64,000 bases of DNA. Source: a phage. Within the stretch, counting starts at the first letter, position 1, and each line of letters opens with the position of its first letter. A program made the position numbers and the translations under genes. The notes beneath the pieces are model-generated. The model ran no database searches. It saw only the letters and a list, made by a program, of their open reading frames with translations, and was not told the origin of the DNA. Where the stretch lies: the NCBI GenBank assembly GCA_011911785.1, contig GCA_011911785.1_4084.1; one strand, given 5' to 3'. Shown here piece after piece: positions 59,677 through 62,854 of the stretch.

Positions 59677-60282
59677 ATGAAACGAATCTTGAAAGAGATT
59701 GTACAAACCGTTGTTTTAATCGCTGCATTAAACTTTCCGGCAGCGGCAGAAGTTTCAAAAAAATCATCTGTTTTTCTATTAAATGAACATGTTGTGTCAA
59801 TTGATGGTGAACTAAATGATGAAACTGTACAAGAAGTGAAGAAGTTGTGGAAAGAAACAAGATTTAAAATTTTAACAATTACATCACCTGGTGGAGATTT
59901 TGATGCAGGATTAGATTTGGGATTGTTTGTGGCTGCTAAAAAGTTAACTGTTTATGTCCCAAAGCAATGTAATTCGTCTTGTAGTCTGGTTTTTTTCTCT
60001 GCATCATCTGAACGTAGGGATATGAGTGATACCGCAGTGATGGGTTTACATAACATCTCACTAGTATCTACGAATGGTGCAGATCCAGATACGACATTCG
60101 TTTCAGTTAGACAGTTGATGGAGTTTACACATCAAGTCTCAACTAAAGTTGGGTATCTTTTTACACTGTACGCACATAACGGTATCCCCGCTGAAACACT
60201 CATTGATATCAGTACTAAACATGGTGAGGATATCGTTGTCTTACGAAGATCAGATCTCGTTAAATGGGGAATCATTCAATAA
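59677..60282 (+). CDS. secreted protein with ClpP/crotonase-like features (tentative)
   Basis: 201 aa; N-terminal signal-peptide-like segment ending AAA-E; ITSPGGDFDAGLDLG resembles ClpP SPGG region. Confidence 0.4.
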   Translation: MKRILKEIVQTVVLIAALNFPAAAEVSKKSSVFLLNEHVVSIDGELNDETVQEVKKLWKETRFKILTITSPGGDFDAGLDLGLFVAAKKLTVYVPKQCNSSCSLVFFSASSERRDMSDTAVMGLHNISLVSTNGADPDTTFVSVRQLMEFTHQVSTKVGYLFTLYAHNGIPAETLIDISTKHGEDIVVLRRSDLVKWGIIQ

Positions 60283-60286
60283 AAAG

Positions 60287-60315
60287 TTGTATTTTTTATG
60301 AAGCAATGATATAAT
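60287..60315 (+). promoter_or_regulatory. candidate promoter with extended -10
   Basis: TGATATAAT (TATAAT 60310-60315) with weak -35 TTGTAT; followed by 5' UTR hairpin GGGTGG-TGTACTG-CCACCC. Confidence 0.35.
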
Positions 60316-60409
60316 CCTAATACTAATTCATGATTTTGGTTAAGGGTGGTGTACTGCCACCCGATTTTAAGATATAATGGTTGTACATTATCAACCAAGG
60401 AAACAAAAA

Positions 60410-60673
60410 ATGACAGAATTATCACATCTTCAAGGCTGGACAGAGTTCATCTTCTATGCTACTATAGTTACATATGGAATCATTGTTCTTTTATCAGTGA
60501 TTATGGCAAGTGATTTCAAGAGTGGTTTTCTTGAAGAAAATGGTGAGTTTTCTTCTAAAACTGAAAAGTACTTTTATTATTTCTTTAAAATTTCGTATAC
60601 AATTTTACTCATAATTTTGGGTTTACTATTGTATTTCATGTACACAATCTTAGATGTAATGCATCTTTTATAA
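60410..60673 (+). CDS. small membrane protein
   Basis: ATG 60410 preferred (AAGGAA RBS); track start 60377 possible; two hydrophobic helices. Confidence 0.45.
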   Translation: MTELSHLQGWTEFIFYATIVTYGIIVLLSVIMASDFKSGFLEENGEFSSKTEKYFYYFFKISYTILLIILGLLLYFMYTILDVMHLL

Positions 60674-60684
60674 CGGAGATATCA

Positions 60685-61287
60685 ATGACTTGTATTATTG
60701 CTTACACTGATGGTAACACATCTTTTATCGCGGGTGACAAACTGGGTAGTAATGGTTTCACTAAAGCAATTCAAACTGAACCAAAAGTGTTTGAAAAAGA
60801 ATTCATCAAAATCGATGAAAGTGGATTGAATCGCACCAAAGAAGTTATGGCAATGGGATACACGTCGAGCTTCCGCATGGGACAATTGCTGACGTATAAA
60901 CTTGATTTACCTGAACAGCAATCAAACCAAACATTCTCACAGTACTTAGTACTTGAGGTAATCCCACGTATTCGCACACTCTTCAAAGAAGAATGGGGTG
61001 CTCGTGATACAACTCAAGACGTTGGTGGTGGACAGTTTATTATTCTCCACAATCATACAATTTATGAAGTTCAAGAGGATTTTTCAGTACTCCAACCTAA
61101 GACACAAATTACATCTGTTGGTAGTGGTACATATCATGCAATTGCAGCTATGCAAGCATATATTGAAGTTCAAAAAGAAACAGGTGTTAAGATGGTTGAT
61201 CGCACCGATTCTATCTTCAAAATTGTAAGTGATAATGTTACCAGCGTTAGTGCTGAGTATGATTTACTAAGCTATCCTAAGCTGTAA
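60685..61287 (+). CDS. Ntn-hydrolase, proteasome beta / HslV-like peptidase
   Basis: 200 aa; N-terminus M-TCIIAY (Thr right after Met), SFIAGDKLGSNG parallels HslV VVIAGDGQATLGN, TSVGSGTYHAIAAMQAY parallels IAIGSGGPYAQAAARAL. Confidence 0.6.
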   Translation: MTCIIAYTDGNTSFIAGDKLGSNGFTKAIQTEPKVFEKEFIKIDESGLNRTKEVMAMGYTSSFRMGQLLTYKLDLPEQQSNQTFSQYLVLEVIPRIRTLFKEEWGARDTTQDVGGGQFIILHNHTIYEVQEDFSVLQPKTQITSVGSGTYHAIAAMQAYIEVQKETGVKMVDRTDSIFKIVSDNVTSVSAEYDLLSYPKL

Positions 61288-61347
61288 TACAAAAAAGGGG
61301 ATTCTTATAATCCCCTATATTAATTTAATAAGGAGAGTATTATAACT

Positions 61348-61560
61348 ATGATAACTATCAATTACTTTTCACTATGCTTTGTTTATTTTGTTGTTGTATT
61401 TCTAGCAGTTGTAGCGTACAATAATATTAAATGTATATATAAAATTATCAAAAACAAAGAGAAATTCAATGGATGGATGATATATCACATTGTCATCTCG
61501 GTTGTGTGTATCTTATTTGTATACGATTTGAGTTCATTAGGTACAGTAGGTAAGCTATGA
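61348..61560 (+). CDS. small membrane protein
   Basis: 70 aa, two hydrophobic helices. Confidence 0.45.
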   Translation: MITINYFSLCFVYFVVVFLAVVAYNNIKCIYKIIKNKEKFNGWMIYHIVISVVCILFVYDLSSLGTVGKL

Positions 61561-62309
61561 TTTCTGACTCTTTTATAAAAAATAAAGGTAATAAACGTGT
61601 ATTGGTTATTTCCGGTGCAGGTCTATCCGTTGAAAGTGGGATGGAACCGTTTCGCATGGACGATGGCCTATGGGATCAATTTCAAATAAATGATGTATGT
61701 AACATTGCACGTCTTAGTACTAAGTATCATTTAGTACACACTTTCTATAATACATTACGTGTTAAAATGAAAGATTGTGTTCCTAATGATATGCATTATT
61801 ATATCAAATCTCTAGAAGATACATACGGTGATAACTTTTTACATATGACTTCGAATATGGATGATCTCTATACTCGTATTGGTGGCAATGAATTAAAGTT
61901 ACATGGTAATTTAAAAGAAGTTATTGAGAATTTTACAATTGGTGGTGACGATTATAGTATTGTGGATTGTGGTTATGAACCGTACATTCCGAAAGAAGGT
62001 GTCTTTGCGAAACCAAACGTAGTGTTCATTGGTGAATATTATCGTTATGTTGATGGTGAAAAACTCCCAATATACGATGAGCGTAATTTAGTATTGCAAT
62101 CCTTAACAGAAGATGATACAGTTGTAGTCATTGGTAGCAGTGACACAGTACTGAAATGGTCACATCTGGTTGCGTGTTTACCATGCTTTAGTGTTAATAT
62201 CAACATCAGAAAAAATGATAACGATTTCATGTTCAATGAAAAAATTATAAAACCAGCTACAAAAGCGATTCCAGTACTGGAAACTATCATTAAGGATAGA
62301 ATGAAATGA
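61557..62309 (+). CDS. Sir2-family (sirtuin-like) NAD-dependent protein
   Basis: 250 aa; VISGAGLSVESGMEPFR...DGLW (Sir2 NAD-binding motif), HMTSNMDDLY...LHGNL, KPNVVFIGE. Confidence 0.8.
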   Translation: MISDSFIKNKGNKRVLVISGAGLSVESGMEPFRMDDGLWDQFQINDVCNIARLSTKYHLVHTFYNTLRVKMKDCVPNDMHYYIKSLEDTYGDNFLHMTSNMDDLYTRIGGNELKLHGNLKEVIENFTIGGDDYSIVDCGYEPYIPKEGVFAKPNVVFIGEYYRYVDGEKLPIYDERNLVLQSLTEDDTVVVIGSSDTVLKWSHLVACLPCFSVNINIRKNDNDFMFNEKIIKPATKAIPVLETIIKDRMK

Positions 62310-62854
62310 TTCGAGAAGTACCTCTAGGTGAGTATGGTAAACGAGCAAACTTTGTATTCTGTTACTTCTTTGCTCGAAATTGTAACCCATATAAAGGTTA
62401 TGATTTAAATGATATCCCTGTTGTGAATCTGGTATTACTCCAGCTTCGTTGGGATGGTTTACTGGGTGGTTGTGGTGGAACAGTTGAAGATACCGATGCC
62501 ACCTTAGAAGATGCACTATTCCGTGAAATTCAGGAAGAGATGGATTATAATATTTTCATCGAACAACTGAAACCATTGAAAACTTACGAACTATATCCAG
62601 GAGCACATACTCATAGCTATAGTTATGAAGTTACTTACGAAGAATTGAAAGCGATTCGCGATGGATACAGTACTGCTAAACATGCAAGTGCAGAAGTGGC
62701 TGGTGTTAATTTATGTCACATTTCTCGTTATTCAAAGGGACAAAACCGAGAAGCAGGATATAATAATCTTATGACACAAAACTTCATAGGAACTGCTAAA
62801 ATGGAATTAGAACATCTTGTTCAATCCGAGAATTTACTGATTAGTTACTTATAA
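62306..62854 (+). CDS. possible divergent Nudix-like hydrolase
   Basis: 182 aa; GGTVEDTDATLEDALFREIQEEMDY approximates Nudix box with deviations; ATGA overlap with Sir2 gene. Confidence 0.3.
   Translation: MIREVPLGEYGKRANFVFCYFFARNCNPYKGYDLNDIPVVNLVLLQLRWDGLLGGCGGTVEDTDATLEDALFREIQEEMDYNIFIEQLKPLKTYELYPGAHTHSYSYEVTYEELKAIRDGYSTAKHASAEVAGVNLCHISRYSKGQNREAGYNNLMTQNFIGTAKMELEHLVQSENLLISYL

What the first reader, a model, noticed from the sequence alone, without database searches (positions are those of the whole stretch)
59677..62854. Accessory cluster: secreted ClpP-like protein, HslV/proteasome-like Ntn hydrolase, Sir2-like protein and Nudix-like protein
Immediately after the structural operon, a rightward block encodes a signal-peptide protein with a ClpP-like SPGG region, a proteasome-beta/HslV-like protein with Thr directly after the initiator Met, a Sir2-family protein with the GAGxSxESGxxxFR and LHG motifs, and a translationally coupled Nudix-like ORF, interspersed with three small membrane proteins. 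No HslU-like ATPase is present. Together with the HxGH nucleotidyltransferase at 20276-20815 this suggests a phage module acting on NAD+/ADP-ribose and on proteolysis, possibly host takeover or counter-defence against NAD-depleting systems. The function is not inferable from sequence alone.
Basis: partly seen in the sequence, partly recalled or inferred. Interest (0 to 1): 0.75.

Follow-up and report, generated by a model that had tools for sequence, protein, structure and literature searches.

The report
Jumbo-phage sirtuin module plus two proteases
This is a real but already annotated gene island of 121Q-like giant coliphages: a zinc-less sirtuin, a NUDT16-like Nudix enzyme, a cREC protein and a PIN-PhoH RNA helicase/nuclease form a module predicted in the literature, but never tested, to process damaged RNA ends using NAD+, and two unrelated phage peptidases sit next to it.

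Summary
The window is an Asteriusvirus (121Q-like jumbo coliphage), 98.9% identical here to Escherichia phage A4. All four domain calls hold.

- ORF 59677-60282 has a ClpP fold, an N-terminal signal-like helix and invariant Ser100/His125.
- ORF 60685-61287 is an HslV/BPH-like Ntn peptidase with invariant Thr1/Asp17/Lys33.
- ORF 61557-62309 is a sirtuin with the catalytic His but no zinc-ribbon cysteines.
- ORF 62306-62854 is a NUDT16-like Nudix overlapping it by ATGA.

The sirtuin and Nudix genes are the first two genes of a collinear block: Sir2, Nudix, cREC, a 1-TM protein, then PIN-PhoH2. All 11 related jumbo-phage loci with enough flank carry this block.

Iyer et al. (2022) already described this neighbourhood and predicted NAD+-dependent RNA repair. 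That remains the best reading and is untested.

The two peptidases are lineage-variable neighbours (4/80 and 2/80 Sir2 loci), not core parts.

Relatives carry NAMPT+NMNAT (the NARP2 anti-defence pathway) and a 2H phosphoesterase in the same island. This phage lacks all three, so the NAD-replenishing counter-defence idea does not apply here.

GenBank records already annotate these genes this way. Interest is moderate to low.

The parts
59613..59641 (+). Sigma-70-like promoter candidate (TTGACA-17-TACTAT), 36 nt upstream of the first gene of the rightward block
   Evidence: (10/12 match). This is weak evidence as a class: 28 promoter-like sites were found against 24 expected by chance.
59677..60282 (+). 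Exported ClpP-fold Ser/His hydrolase (201 aa). Residues ~1-24 form a signal-like helix ending AAA|E. It carries the SPGG motif and C98-N-S100-S-C102, with His125.
   Evidence: S70 G72 G73 C98 S100 C102 H125 are invariant in 35 homologues. The best fold matches are ClpP.
60377..60673 (+). Small 2-TM membrane protein (98 aa; phage A4 annotates the shorter start at 60410). It has no family match.
   Evidence: A homologous 86-aa ORF occupies the same position in 121Q.
60685..61287 (+). HslV/BPH-like N-terminal-nucleophile threonine peptidase (200 aa) with Thr1/Asp17/Lys33 and a GSG motif. The Asteriusvirus lineage has an insertion of about 17 aa.
61296..61316 (.). 8-bp GC-containing hairpin (terminator-like, readable on both strands) between the HslV-like gene and the next ORF
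   Evidence: It is not conserved in 121Q, so it is at most a lineage-specific operon boundary.
61348..61560 (+). Small 2-TM membrane protein (70 aa) whose stop overlaps the Sir2 start. It sits where relatives carry a 2H/Acb1-like gene.
   Evidence: 121Q has an unannotated 64-aa counterpart.
61557..62309 (+). Phage-clade sirtuin (250 aa). The NAD-binding GAG/FR motifs, N100, D102/D103 and catalytic His116 are kept. The zinc-ribbon cysteines are absent. The clade-specific motif V47-C48-N49-I50 is present.
62306..62854 (+). NUDT16-like Nudix hydrolase (182 aa) with an intact REIQEE metal-binding box, translationally coupled to Sir2 by an ATGA overlap
   Evidence: It is fused to cREC in GAP32_120.
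62866..63198 (+). cREC (cyclic-phosphate-processing receiver-like) domain protein (110 aa)
   Evidence: PF20274, 4.7e-22, full profile coverage. It is collinear with Sir2 and Nudix in 11/11 jumbo loci.
63195..63494 (+). Conserved protein with an N-terminal TM helix and four cysteines (99 aa, TTG start, overlaps the cREC stop). It is a fixed member of the block.
   Evidence: (40-47% identity to GAP32_121 and fENko_144).
63559..64000 (+). First 147 aa (PIN domain) of a 479-aa PIN-PhoH2-type RNA helicase/nuclease. The gene runs off the window.
   Evidence: (PIN_4 1e-21, PhoH 1e-43 on the identical A4 gene).

Best explanation
The region is a composite, not one machine.

Unit A (61348-64000 and beyond) is a conserved jumbo-phage module: small TM protein, sirtuin, NUDT16-like Nudix, cREC, 1-TM protein, PIN-PhoH2. 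It most likely processes RNA ends and the ADP-ribose by-products that result, spending NAD+.

Proposed steps (all inferred):
1. Host or competitor ribotoxins leave 2',3'-cyclic phosphate ends on tRNA or mRNA.
2. cREC (with 2H in relatives) opens the cyclic phosphate.
3. After ligation, the phage's T4-type Rnl1 and PNK (27499-30650) being available for that step, the sirtuin acts like Tpt1/KptA. It transfers the residual 2'-phosphate, or an RNA terminal phosphate, onto the ADP-ribose of NAD+. [quoted passage not shown]
4. cREC linearises that product.
5. The Nudix enzyme splits the pyrophosphate to AMP plus a phosphoribose. Alternatively it removes ADPr or NAD caps from RNA.
6. PIN-PhoH2 unwinds or trims the RNA substrate.

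Shown here: domain identities, intact catalytic residues, gene order, translational coupling, the Nudix-cREC fusion, and co-occurrence statistics.

Unit B (59613-61316) holds two independent accessory peptidases that are variable between lineages. One is an exported ClpP-fold Ser/His hydrolase, probably acting in the periplasm or at the membrane. The other is a cytoplasmic HslV/BPH-like Thr1 peptidase with no phage ATPase partner. Their substrates are unknown.
For: - Sir2, Nudix, cREC, TM99, PIN and PhoH are collinear on one strand in all 11 Rak2-like jumbo loci that have downstream flank. The same order holds in 121Q, fENko-Kae01 and GAP32.
- GAP32_120 is a single Nudt16-like+cREC polypeptide, a Rosetta-stone link between the two.
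- rV5-like phages carry Rnl1, cREC, Sir2 in a tight row: 11 loci have Rnl1 upstream of Sir2, most of them with cREC between.
- A 2H phosphoesterase sits directly upstream of Sir2 in 10/12 jumbo loci.
- The downstream gene is PIN_4+PhoH, and the NCBIfam 'RNA 5'-3' helicase PhoH2' model scores 1e-47.
- The closest solved relative of the Nudix is the RNA-decapping and ADPr-processing enzyme NUDT16.
- The sirtuin keeps the NAD site and catalytic His but lacks the Zn-ribbon cysteines. The CobB acyl-lysine tunnel residues (FGE Phe, VYP) are not conserved, which argues for a non-peptide substrate.
- It matches no defence-type SIR2 model.
- The window also encodes T4-type Rnl1 (2e-106) and PNK (5e-94).
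- The same neighbourhood and mechanism were independently proposed by Iyer et al. 2022 (PMC9503650, section 3.7.3).
- The peptidases are separable from the module. The HslV-like gene occurs in 4/80 and the ClpP-like gene in 2/80 Sir2 loci. Neither is present in the GAP32 region. HslV-like homologues occur in phage contigs without Sir2.
Against: - No sirtuin has been shown to act on RNA. cREC and this sirtuin clade are stated to be uncharacterised (PMC9503650), and later literature searches found nothing.
- T4-type PNK/Rnl1 repair leaves no 2'-phosphate, so a Tpt1-like step is not obviously needed.
- This phage lacks the 2H gene.
- PIN nucleases are metal-dependent and do not make cyclic phosphates.
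- The 2H gene of relatives scores best against Acb1, an anti-CBASS nuclease. NAMPT/NMNAT lie nearby in 23/80 loci. Both facts fit an NAD or immune-signal reading equally well.
- Synteny within one phage group can reflect shared descent rather than function.
- The ClpP-like gene heads the island in five lineages down to 27% identity, so it may not be wholly independent.
Confidence: 0.4

Rival explanations
1. Classical annotation. The sirtuin is a CobB-like protein lysine deacylase or protein ADP-ribosyltransferase that reprogrammes host enzymes, for example by activating acetyl-CoA synthetase. Nudix and cREC simply clear O-acyl-ADP-ribose or ADP-ribose.
For: - The nearest solved structure is E. 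coli CobB (E 2e-21), and the NCBIfam deacylase models hit at 1e-24 to 1e-26, though all below their cut-offs.
- The catalytic His and NAD motifs are intact.
- The idea was proposed for the Vibrio-phage orthologue from modelling and transcript timing (PMC5107563).
- NAMPT is a frequent neighbour.
Against: - The Zn-ribbon cysteines are absent across the clade. The acyl-lysine tunnel residues are not conserved in this protein: CobB FGE becomes IGE, and VYP becomes VLK. That part of the alignment is low-confidence.
- All deacylase equivalog scores are far below cut-off (92 against 318 bits).
- This reading does not explain the fixed linkage to cREC, PIN-PhoH2, 2H and Rnl1.
Confidence: 0.2
2. Counter-defence on small molecules. 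The island manages NAD+ and destroys ADPr-derived or cyclic-nucleotide immune signals. cREC and Nudix (with 2H/Acb1-like in relatives) degrade gcADPR, ADPr>p or cyclic oligonucleotides. This complements the NARP2 NAD+ resynthesis pathway.
For: - NAMPT+NMNAT/Nudix lie 2-7 kb upstream of Sir2 in 11/12 related jumbo loci and in L011, L100 and L101.
- NARP2 has been shown to defeat Thoeris and DSR2 (bioRxiv 10.1101/2024.02.11.579819).
- The 2H neighbour matches Pfam Acb1 at 6e-16.
- Iyer et al. argue that phage Nudix, Macro and NADAR domains mainly counter soluble ADPr derivatives.
Against: - This phage has lost NAMPT, NMNAT and 2H yet keeps the Sir2 block intact.
- An NAD+-consuming sirtuin is an odd component of an NAD+-sparing system.
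- PIN-PhoH2 and Rnl1 linkage is unexplained.
- No enzyme here matches a known anti-defence family. There is no PADLOC hit for Sir2, and PADLOC covers defence rather than anti-defence systems.
Confidence: 0.17
3. RNA decay or host shut-off. The NUDT16-like enzyme removes 5' caps (NAD, triphosphate) from host transcripts. PIN-PhoH2 then degrades them 5' to 3'. The sirtuin and cREC are accessory.
For: - The NUDT16/X29 family are RNA-decapping enzymes, and the match is full-length.
- The PhoH2 model is annotated as a 5'-3' RNA helicase fused to a PIN RNase.
- From my own knowledge: viral Nudix decapping enzymes (poxvirus D9/D10, ASFV g5R) drive host shut-off.
Against: - This does not explain the Nudix-cREC fusion, the ATGA coupling to an NAD-dependent sirtuin, or the Rnl1-cREC-Sir2 operons that lack both Nudix and PIN.
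Confidence: 0.13
4. The secreted ClpP-like protein, the HslV-like peptidase, the sirtuin and the Nudix act together as one proteolysis-plus-NAD takeover module.
For: - The genes are adjacent on one strand behind a single good promoter candidate.
- The ClpP-like gene heads the same island in RaK2, L011, L100 and L101.
- HslV-like genes recur near PhoH and ClpP-family genes in unrelated phage contigs.
Against: - Co-occurrence with Sir2 is 4/80 for HslV-like and 2/80 for ClpP-like.
- GAP32 has the Sir2 block with neither peptidase, and fENko has HslV-like but no ClpP-like gene.
- One peptidase is predicted to be exported and the other cytoplasmic.
- A hairpin separates the two halves in this lineage.
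Confidence: 0.05

Closest known systems
Sirtuin-centred phage 'RNA repair' neighbourhood, configuration 1 of Iyer, Burroughs, Anantharaman & Aravind 2022 (PMC9503650; prototype Serratia phage BF)
   Same: Sirtuin, Nudix, cREC and a PIN endoRNase in one jumbo-phage gene row. The sirtuin belongs to the same phage clade, and there is no Macro partner.
   Different: The 2H gene is missing here (a 70-aa membrane ORF sits in its place). Nudix and cREC are separate genes. The paper does not mention the conserved 1-TM protein or the PhoH ATPase fused to PIN. The system is a prediction only.
Tpt1/KptA + 2H cyclic phosphodiesterase pathway (fungal/plant tRNA ligation clean-up)
   Same: The proposed chemistry is the same: NAD+-dependent removal of an RNA 2'-phosphate giving ADPr 1''-2''>p, which is then opened and degraded.
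   Different: Tpt1 is an ART-fold enzyme unrelated to sirtuins. No Tpt1, Macro or 2H gene is present here. The activity of the sirtuin is untested.
E. coli CobB / SIRT5-type (class III) sirtuin deacylases
   Same: Rossmann NAD-binding motifs, the TxNxD motif and the catalytic His align over residues 13-123 (E 2e-21).
   Different: No Cys4 zinc ribbon, divergent acyl-lysine tunnel residues, a clade-specific VCNI motif, and scores far below the equivalog cut-offs.
Human NUDT16 / Xenopus X29 (U8 snoRNA decapping; IDP, ADPr and cap hydrolase)
   Same: Full-length homology (E 3e-13) and near-identical Nudix box (GGxV[DE]xxDx[ST]LE[DG]xLxRE[LI]xEE).
   Different: A bacterial-virus protein coupled to a sirtuin and, in GAP32, fused to cREC. 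Its substrate is unknown.
HslV (ClpQ) and the beta-proteobacterial proteasome homologue BPH
   Same: Ntn-hydrolase fold, Thr1/Asp17/Lys33 with identical spacing, and a GSG loop. The model gives TM 0.6-0.76 to HslV and BPH.
   Different: 14-18% identity. There is an invariant Cys after Thr1 and a lineage-specific insertion. No HslU gene is adjacent or general in the lineage. The oligomeric state is unknown.
ClpP / NfeD (1510-N) / SppA clan of self-compartmentalising serine peptidases
   Same: ClpP fold (rmsd ~3 A over ~173 columns), an SxGG oxyanion motif, and Ser and His aligned to the ClpP catalytic residues.
   Different: An N-terminal signal-like helix, a CxSxC motif around the nucleophile, no conserved third acidic residue, and a low-confidence 'handle' region. 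The phage has a separate bona fide ClpP at 40957-41652.
NARP2 (phage Nampt + Nmnat NAD+ reconstitution pathway, KVP40)
   Same: In relatives (GAP32, RaK2, fENko-Kae01, L011, L100, L101) these genes lie in the same island, between the ClpP-like slot and Sir2.
   Different: They are absent from this window and, as far as tblastn shows, from Asteriusvirus.

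Membership tests
Sirtuin (Pfam SIR2, PF02146) | Profile match above the gathering score, spanning the Rossmann domain | tested here: met
   70.8 bits against a cut-off of 24, covering residues 20-198 of 250.
Sirtuin (Pfam SIR2, PF02146) | NAD-binding GAGxS...FR motif, TxNxD motif and catalytic His | tested here: met
   G20 A21 G22, F32 R33, T98 N100 D103 and H116 are invariant in 7 diverse phage sirtuins and align to CobB.
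Canonical lysine-deacylase sirtuins (CobB/SIRT5 equivalogs) | Cys4 zinc-ribbon small domain | tested here: not met
   The CobB cysteines (RC..., KCHCC) have no counterpart. There is no conserved Cys pair between H116 and K152 in the clade. This was also noted for Vibrio phages in PMC5107563.
Canonical lysine-deacylase sirtuins (CobB/SIRT5 equivalogs) | NCBIfam equivalog cut-off reached | tested here: not met
   The best score is 92.5 bits against a cut-off of 318.
Canonical lysine-deacylase sirtuins (CobB/SIRT5 equivalogs) | NAD+-dependent deacylase activity | not testable with these tools
   This needs an enzyme assay.
Defence-associated SIR2 NADases (ThsA, DSR1/2, SIR2-HerA, pAgo-SIR2) | Match to PADLOC SIR2 effector models, and fusion or linkage to a sensor domain | tested here: not met
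   No PADLOC hit at E<=1e-3. The protein is a stand-alone 250-aa domain.
Iyer et al. sirtuin RNA-repair neighbourhood (configuration 1) | Phage-clade sirtuin linked to Nudix, cREC and a PIN endoRNase | tested here: met
   (the block is collinear in 11/11 jumbo loci).
Iyer et al. sirtuin RNA-repair neighbourhood (configuration 1) | Linked 2H phosphoesterase | tested here: not met
   No 2H homologue in the 64-kb window (tblastn). It is present in 10/12 relatives.
Iyer et al. sirtuin RNA-repair neighbourhood (configuration 1) | Actual RNA 2'-phosphotransferase / ADPr>p processing activity | not testable with these tools
   The source paper states it is uncharacterised.
NUDT16-like Nudix (PF22327) | Profile above the gathering score, and an intact Nudix box Rx-E-x2-EE | tested here: met
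   69.6 bits against a cut-off of 27. REIQEE is present and the alignment to human NUDT16 covers residues 28-178.
cREC (PF20274) | Full-length profile match with the receiver-type acidic residues | tested here: met
   78.9 bits against a cut-off of 27, profile positions 2-88 of 88. The FLDDIRD and SFDHD motifs are visible in the sequence.
PhoH2 (PIN + PhoH RNA helicase/RNase) | N-terminal PIN domain plus C-terminal PhoH P-loop ATPase in one protein | tested here: met
   PIN_4 1.2e-21 and PhoH 9.6e-44 on the A4 orthologue, whose first 147 aa are identical to the window. The NCBIfam equivalog cut-off is not reached (163 against 680 bits).
HslV / proteasome-beta Ntn hydrolases | Thr1 nucleophile exposed after Met removal, with Asp17 and Lys33 | tested here: met
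   T2, D18 and K34 are invariant in 28 homologues, with the same spacing as E. coli HslV.
HslV / proteasome-beta Ntn hydrolases | Proteasome-beta fold | tested here: met
   The AF2 model has pLDDT 89.9. Foldseek gives HslV at E 1e-8 and BPH at TM 0.67-0.76.
HslV / proteasome-beta Ntn hydrolases | Pfam Proteasome or NCBIfam HslV cut-off reached | tested here: not met
   No PF00227 hit for this protein, though it is present in 3 distant homologues. The HslV equivalog scores 20 bits against a cut-off of 137.
HslVU protease | Cognate HslU AAA+ partner | tested here: inconclusive
   None is adjacent. Only 4 Escherichia phage records hold any HslU-like sequence, and none are in the listed top hits. 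Use of the host HslU was not tested.
ClpP (S14) peptidases | ClpP fold with aligned catalytic Ser and His | tested here: met
   Foldseek E 1.5e-8, TM up to 0.73. S100 and H125 are invariant and align to the ClpP Ser and His.
ClpP (S14) peptidases | Pfam CLP_protease gathering score; catalytic Asp; tetradecamer handle | tested here: not met
   15 bits against a cut-off of 20.2. No invariant acidic third residue. The handle region 125-143 has low confidence. The oligomer was not modelled.
Sec-exported protein | Cleavable N-terminal signal peptide | tested here: inconclusive
   An n-region (MKRILKE), an h-region (residues 8-26, KD 1.71) and AxA-like AAA|E, conserved in most family members. No SignalP run or experiment was possible.
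NARP2 NAD+ reconstitution | Nampt and Nmnat genes present | tested here: not met
   No hit in the window. Asteriusvirus is absent from 60 listed NAMPT hits reaching down to 35% identity. The HxGH ORF 20276-20815 has no Pfam, NMNAT or PDB support.

The most novel reading that the evidence does not exclude
The zinc-less phage sirtuin is the first sirtuin that acts on RNA. It transfers an RNA 2'- or terminal phosphate to NAD+, working as a Tpt1 analogue, or it ADP-ribosylates RNA ends. The NUDT16-like Nudix, cREC and PIN-PhoH2 form a dedicated NAD+-driven RNA-end healing pathway that lets jumbo phages survive ribotoxin-type defences. In addition, the exported ClpP-fold hydrolase that heads the same island in five lineages is a previously undescribed periplasmic phage protease family.
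Probability: 0.3. Interest if true: 0.75.

Novelty: already known. Interest (0 to 1): 0.33.

Why it matters
NAD+ is a main battleground between phages and bacterial immunity. Phage sirtuins occur in about a thousand sequenced phages, including T5, rV5, KVP40-like and Rak2-like groups, yet none has a tested function. If the predicted RNA-directed activity is real, it would add a new substrate class to the sirtuin superfamily. It would also define a second phage RNA-repair route beside T4 PNK/Rnl1.

This Asteriusvirus version keeps the sirtuin block but has shed NAMPT, NMNAT and 2H. That makes it a natural minimal system for testing what the core does without NAD+ salvage confounding the result.

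For the scan itself, the finding is correct but not new. GenBank records (121Q, A4) and two Aravind-lab papers already cover it.

Tried and rejected
1. Linking the HxGH ORF 20276-20815 to NAD metabolism. It has no Pfam or PDB support, only a PHROG 'cytidyltransferase' label and a weak NadD fragment. Rejected as unsupported.

2. Looking for NAMPT, NMNAT or 2H elsewhere in the window. None was found.

3. Treating C98/C102 as a periplasm-specific disulphide. A cytoplasmic ClpP-family protein in contig L006 has the same CxSxC pattern, so this was not used as evidence.

4. Using the hairpin at 61296-61316 as a conserved operon boundary. It is absent in 121Q.

5. A defence-system reading (a phage-borne SIR2 NADase or Abi). 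There is no PADLOC match for Sir2, and only P-loop fragments match for PhoH.

6. Searching the held literature for experimental work on cREC or phage sirtuins. Nothing beyond predictions was found.

7. Testing whether the ~30 tandem small ORFs at 76-15467 are paralogues. Only one BLAST-detectable pair was found.

8. A direct PDB sequence search with the HslV-like protein found nothing. A family profile was needed.

9. No tRNA genes were found in the window.

Full report
**Identity of the window**

Megablast places 59600-63500 on Escherichia phage A4 (ON286972, genus Asteriusvirus, 355 kb) at 98.9% identity over 100% of the query. Weaker matches go to other 121Q-like jumbo coliphages. Window 1-25000 matches the same phage at 99.1%.

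The A4 and 121Q GenBank records already label these genes:
- 'ClpP/crotonase-like domain protein' or 'protease (ClpP-like)';
- 'protease' or 'peptidase HslV family';
- 'Sir2-like protein';
- 'nudix hydrolase';
- 'membrane protein';
- 'PhoH-like protein'.

**Checking the observation**

The + strand carries these ORFs:

| Coordinates | Length | Identity |
|---|---|---|
| 59677-60282 | 201 aa | ClpP-like |
| 60377-60673 | 98 aa | small membrane protein |
| 60685-61287 | 200 aa | HslV-like |
| 61348-61560 | 70 aa | small membrane protein |
| 61557-62309 | 250 aa | Sir2 |
| 62306-62854 | 182 aa | Nudix |
| 62866-63198 | 110 aa | cREC |
| 63195-63494 | 99 aa | 1-TM protein |
| 63559 onward | runs off the window | PIN-PhoH |

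PHROGs supports all of them: protease 2e-60, HslV family 4e-21, Sir2 2.5e-72, Nudix 4e-85. The Sir2/Nudix junction is ...AAATGA..., an ATGA overlap.

Hydropathy gives two TM helices in each of the 98- and 70-aa ORFs and one in the 99-aa ORF. It also gives an N-terminal hydrophobic stretch at residues 8-26 in the ClpP-like protein.

**The ClpP-like protein**

Pfam alone is sub-threshold, and the word-indexed search found only six close homologues. An exhaustive HMMER search found 318 relatives.

- In a 35-sequence alignment, S70, G72, G73, C98, S100, C102 and H125 are invariant. Nearly all members start with a hydrophobic leader.
- The profile hits ClpP (5e-6) and the NfeD 1510-N protease (5e-5). 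The family's CnSaC serine aligns to the ClpP nucleophile and its HN histidine to the ClpP His.
- Ten of the 35 members hit Pfam CLP_protease on their own.
- The AF2 model (pLDDT 91.5) shows helix 2-19 followed by an alpha/beta domain. The best PDB matches are all ClpP: E 1.5e-8, TM 0.6-0.73, rmsd about 3 A.
- No third acidic catalytic residue is conserved, and the 'handle' segment (about 125-143) is poorly predicted.
- The phage also has an orthodox ClpP at 40957-41652 (Pfam 8e-42). This protein is therefore a distinct, apparently exported ClpP-fold Ser/His hydrolase.

**The HslV-like protein**

Sixty-five homologues were found, three of them carrying a precomputed Pfam Proteasome hit.

- In 28 diverse sequences, M1 T2 C3 D18 K34 G146 G148 are invariant. 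This is the Thr1/Asp17/Lys33 triad and the GSG loop, with the same spacing as E. coli HslV.
- The profile hits HslV at 3.6e-9 and also BPH.
- The model (pLDDT 89.9, pTM 0.87) matches HslV (E 1e-8) and BPH (TM up to 0.76).
- No HslU gene is adjacent. A tblastn with E. coli HslU found hits in only four Escherichia phage records, none among the 30 listed hits. A published note on another jumbo phage likewise reports HslV without HslU (PMC7823757).

**The sirtuin**

The nearest solved structure is E. coli CobB (E 2e-21), aligned over residues 13-123 through the catalytic His116. In the region where CobB has its zinc-ribbon cysteines, the phage protein has none.

An alignment with the sirtuins of 121Q, fENko-Kae01, GAP32, a KVP40-like Vibrio phage, T5 and rV5 shows three things:
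- the GAG, FR, N100, D103 and H116 positions are invariant;
- the clade has its own V-C-N-I motif;
- no cysteine pair is conserved in the small domain.

The CobB acyl-lysine tunnel residues are not kept in this protein: FGE becomes IGE and VYP becomes VLK. That part of the alignment is low-confidence. The loss of zinc ligands was noted before for Vibrio phages (PMC5107563).

The clade is widespread, with 975 phage records by tblastn. It matches no defence-type SIR2 model in PADLOC.

**The Nudix**

Human NUDT16 aligns over the full length (3e-13) with an almost identical Nudix box.

The next genes are a cREC domain protein, a conserved 1-TM protein (40-47% identical in GAP32 and fENko-Kae01) and a PIN_4+PhoH protein. 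The PIN_4 and PhoH scores are 1e-21 and 1e-43, and the NCBIfam PhoH2 RNA helicase model scores 1e-47. The first 147 residues of the PIN-PhoH protein lie in the window and are identical to A4.

In GAP32, the Nudix and cREC domains are fused in one 301-aa protein.

**Comparative test**

I fetched 80 phage Sir2 loci from IMG/VR with 7-kb flanks and scanned them with profiles built here. Twelve are Rak2-like jumbo loci. Eleven of these have downstream flank, and all eleven show the collinear block Sir2, Nudix, cREC, TM99, PIN, PhoH.

| Feature near Sir2 | Loci |
|---|---|
| Collinear Sir2 block | 11/11 jumbo loci with downstream flank |
| 2H/Acb1-like gene directly upstream (PF23474 6e-16) | 10/12 jumbo |
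| NAMPT + NMNAT, 2-7 kb upstream | 11/12 jumbo (121Q is the exception) |
| HslV-like gene | 4/80 |
| Secreted ClpP-like gene | 2/80 (121Q, RaK2) |
| PIN-less PhoH, about 3 kb upstream on the opposite strand | 30 T5-like loci |
| Rnl1 upstream of Sir2, cREC between them in most | 11 rV5-like loci |

- The 7-kb upstream flank would miss some ClpP-like genes, so that count is a lower bound.
- Direct inspection confirms the T5 and rV5 arrangements.
- Profile scans confirm that the GAP32 region has neither peptidase, and that fENko-Kae01 has only the HslV-like one.
- The secreted ClpP-like gene does head the same island in three divergent metagenomic relatives at 27-34% identity. There it sits immediately before NMNAT/Nudix and NAMPT, followed by Acb1-like, SIR2, Nudt16-like and cREC.

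The ancestral island therefore looks like this: ClpP-like, NMNAT-Nudix, NAMPT, (HslV-like), 2H, Sir2, Nudix, cREC, TM, PIN-PhoH. Losses are lineage-specific. Asteriusvirus has lost NMNAT, NAMPT and 2H.

**HslV-like homologues elsewhere**

These lie in phage contigs without Sir2. They are often near PhoH and a cytoplasmic ClpP-family gene (L006, L016, L018), and once beside a HAD-PNKP gene (L017).

**Literature**

[quoted passage not shown] They also describe the rV5 and T5-type variants.

They propose that the sirtuin acts like KptA/Tpt1 to remove RNA 2'-phosphates, and that the partner enzymes open cyclic phosphates and degrade ADPr>p. They state that cREC is uncharacterised. The cREC domain was defined in their jumbo-phage survey (PMC7824862). 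I found no experimental follow-up.

NARP2 (Nampt + Nmnat) has been shown to overcome Thoeris and DSR2 (bioRxiv 10.1101/2024.02.11.579819).

**Interpretation**

The best-supported reading is a composite.

The Sir2, Nudix, cREC, TM, PIN-PhoH2 block is a conserved module. It most probably deals with RNA ends and ADP-ribose by-products at the expense of NAD+. These points support that reading:
- the Rnl1 linkage in rV5-like phages;
- the Nudix-cREC fusion;
- the 2H neighbour in relatives;
- the RNA helicase/RNase partner;
- a decapping-family Nudix;
- a sirtuin stripped of its peptide-binding zinc module;
- a T4-type Rnl1 (27499-28644, 2e-106) and PNK (29718-30650, 5e-94) in the same window.

These points weigh against it:
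- no biochemistry exists;
- the T4-type pathway needs no 2'-phosphotransferase;
- 2H is absent here;
- the association with NAMPT/NMNAT and an Acb1-like 2H fits an NAD or immune-signal role equally well.

I give the RNA-end model 0.4, with three rivals: protein deacylase or ART, small-molecule counter-defence, and decapping/decay.

The two peptidases are real enzymes with intact active sites. They are lineage-variable neighbours, one predicted to be exported and one cytoplasmic. Their substrates cannot be inferred.

A sigma-70-like promoter candidate (59613-59641) precedes the block, and a hairpin (61296-61316) separates the peptidase half from the sirtuin half. The hairpin is not conserved in 121Q, and promoter-like sites are no more frequent than chance.

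**Verdict**

The single 'proteolysis + NAD' module, the link to the HxGH gene and the NAD-depletion counter-defence idea are not supported for this phage.

The feature is already annotated and already described as a predicted system. Its value lies in being an untested, widespread phage sirtuin system, and in this lineage being a natural minimal version of it.

Noticed in passing
window 44617-59478 (- strand): Six minus-strand ORFs run in a row (137, 808, 567, 629, 832 and 1881 aa), and four of them have Ig-like/Big_2 Pfam matches. The 1881-aa protein has at least 12 tandem ~88-aa repeats with a Y-x-P-D-x-A motif. The near-identical phage A4 has only ~3.7 kb here (one 722-aa protein) against ~15 kb in this window. 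This is a hypervariable expansion of Ig-repeat (probably virion-decoration or fibre) genes.
   Followed up: partly
window 27499-28644 and 29718-30650 (+): A T4-type RNA ligase 1 (phrog_562, 2e-106) and a polynucleotide kinase/phosphatase (phrog_505, 5e-94) are present. This is a complete T4-style tRNA repair pair, 30 kb upstream of the sirtuin block.
   Followed up: partly
L002 (121Q) 6616-6810: An unannotated 64-aa two-TM ORF sits between the HslV-like and Sir2 genes of 121Q, matching the window's 70-aa ORF (61348-61560). It occupies the slot where relatives carry the 2H/Acb1-like gene.
   Followed up: partly
L006 5868-8558; L016 641-3369; L018 329-2053: In distant phage contigs, the HslV-like peptidase recurs next to PhoH and a cytoplasmic ClpP-family protein (255/295 aa, with a lysine-rich tail). 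In L018 an HslV-like domain with a 130-aa C-terminal extension lies directly after PhoH. This may be a recurrent PhoH / ClpP-family / HslV-like trio. These contigs share synteny, so they may count as a single lineage.
   Followed up: partly
L003 4300-4746 (GAP32_118); L004 4531-4977 (fENko_139); L100, L101: The 2H gene directly upstream of Sir2 in relatives scores best against Pfam Acb1 (anti-CBASS nuclease, ~1e-16) rather than the generic 2'-5' RNA ligase family. This leaves open an anti-signalling role for the island.
   Followed up: no
window 63195-63494: A conserved 99-aa protein has one N-terminal TM helix and four cysteines (C47, C52, C82, C92). It always lies between cREC and PIN-PhoH (11/11 jumbo loci). 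It is unexplained by any model of the module, and the published description of the neighbourhood does not mention it.
   Followed up: partly
window 20276-20815: A 179-aa HxGH (GRINPVHLGHG) nucleotidyltransferase-like ORF is labelled 'cytidyltransferase' in PHROGs and sits next to a Dam methyltransferase (19752-20279). It has no Pfam or PDB match, so its substrate is unknown.
   Followed up: partly
window 34999-35742, 37879-39297, 39251-40108, 40957-41652, 43850-44332: A syntenic core is shared with GAP32, fENko-Kae01 and metagenomic relatives: NinI-like phosphatase, ATP-dependent DNA ligase, calcineurin-like phosphoesterase, bona fide ClpP and dCMP deaminase. All lie upstream of the Ig-protein block.
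   Followed up: no
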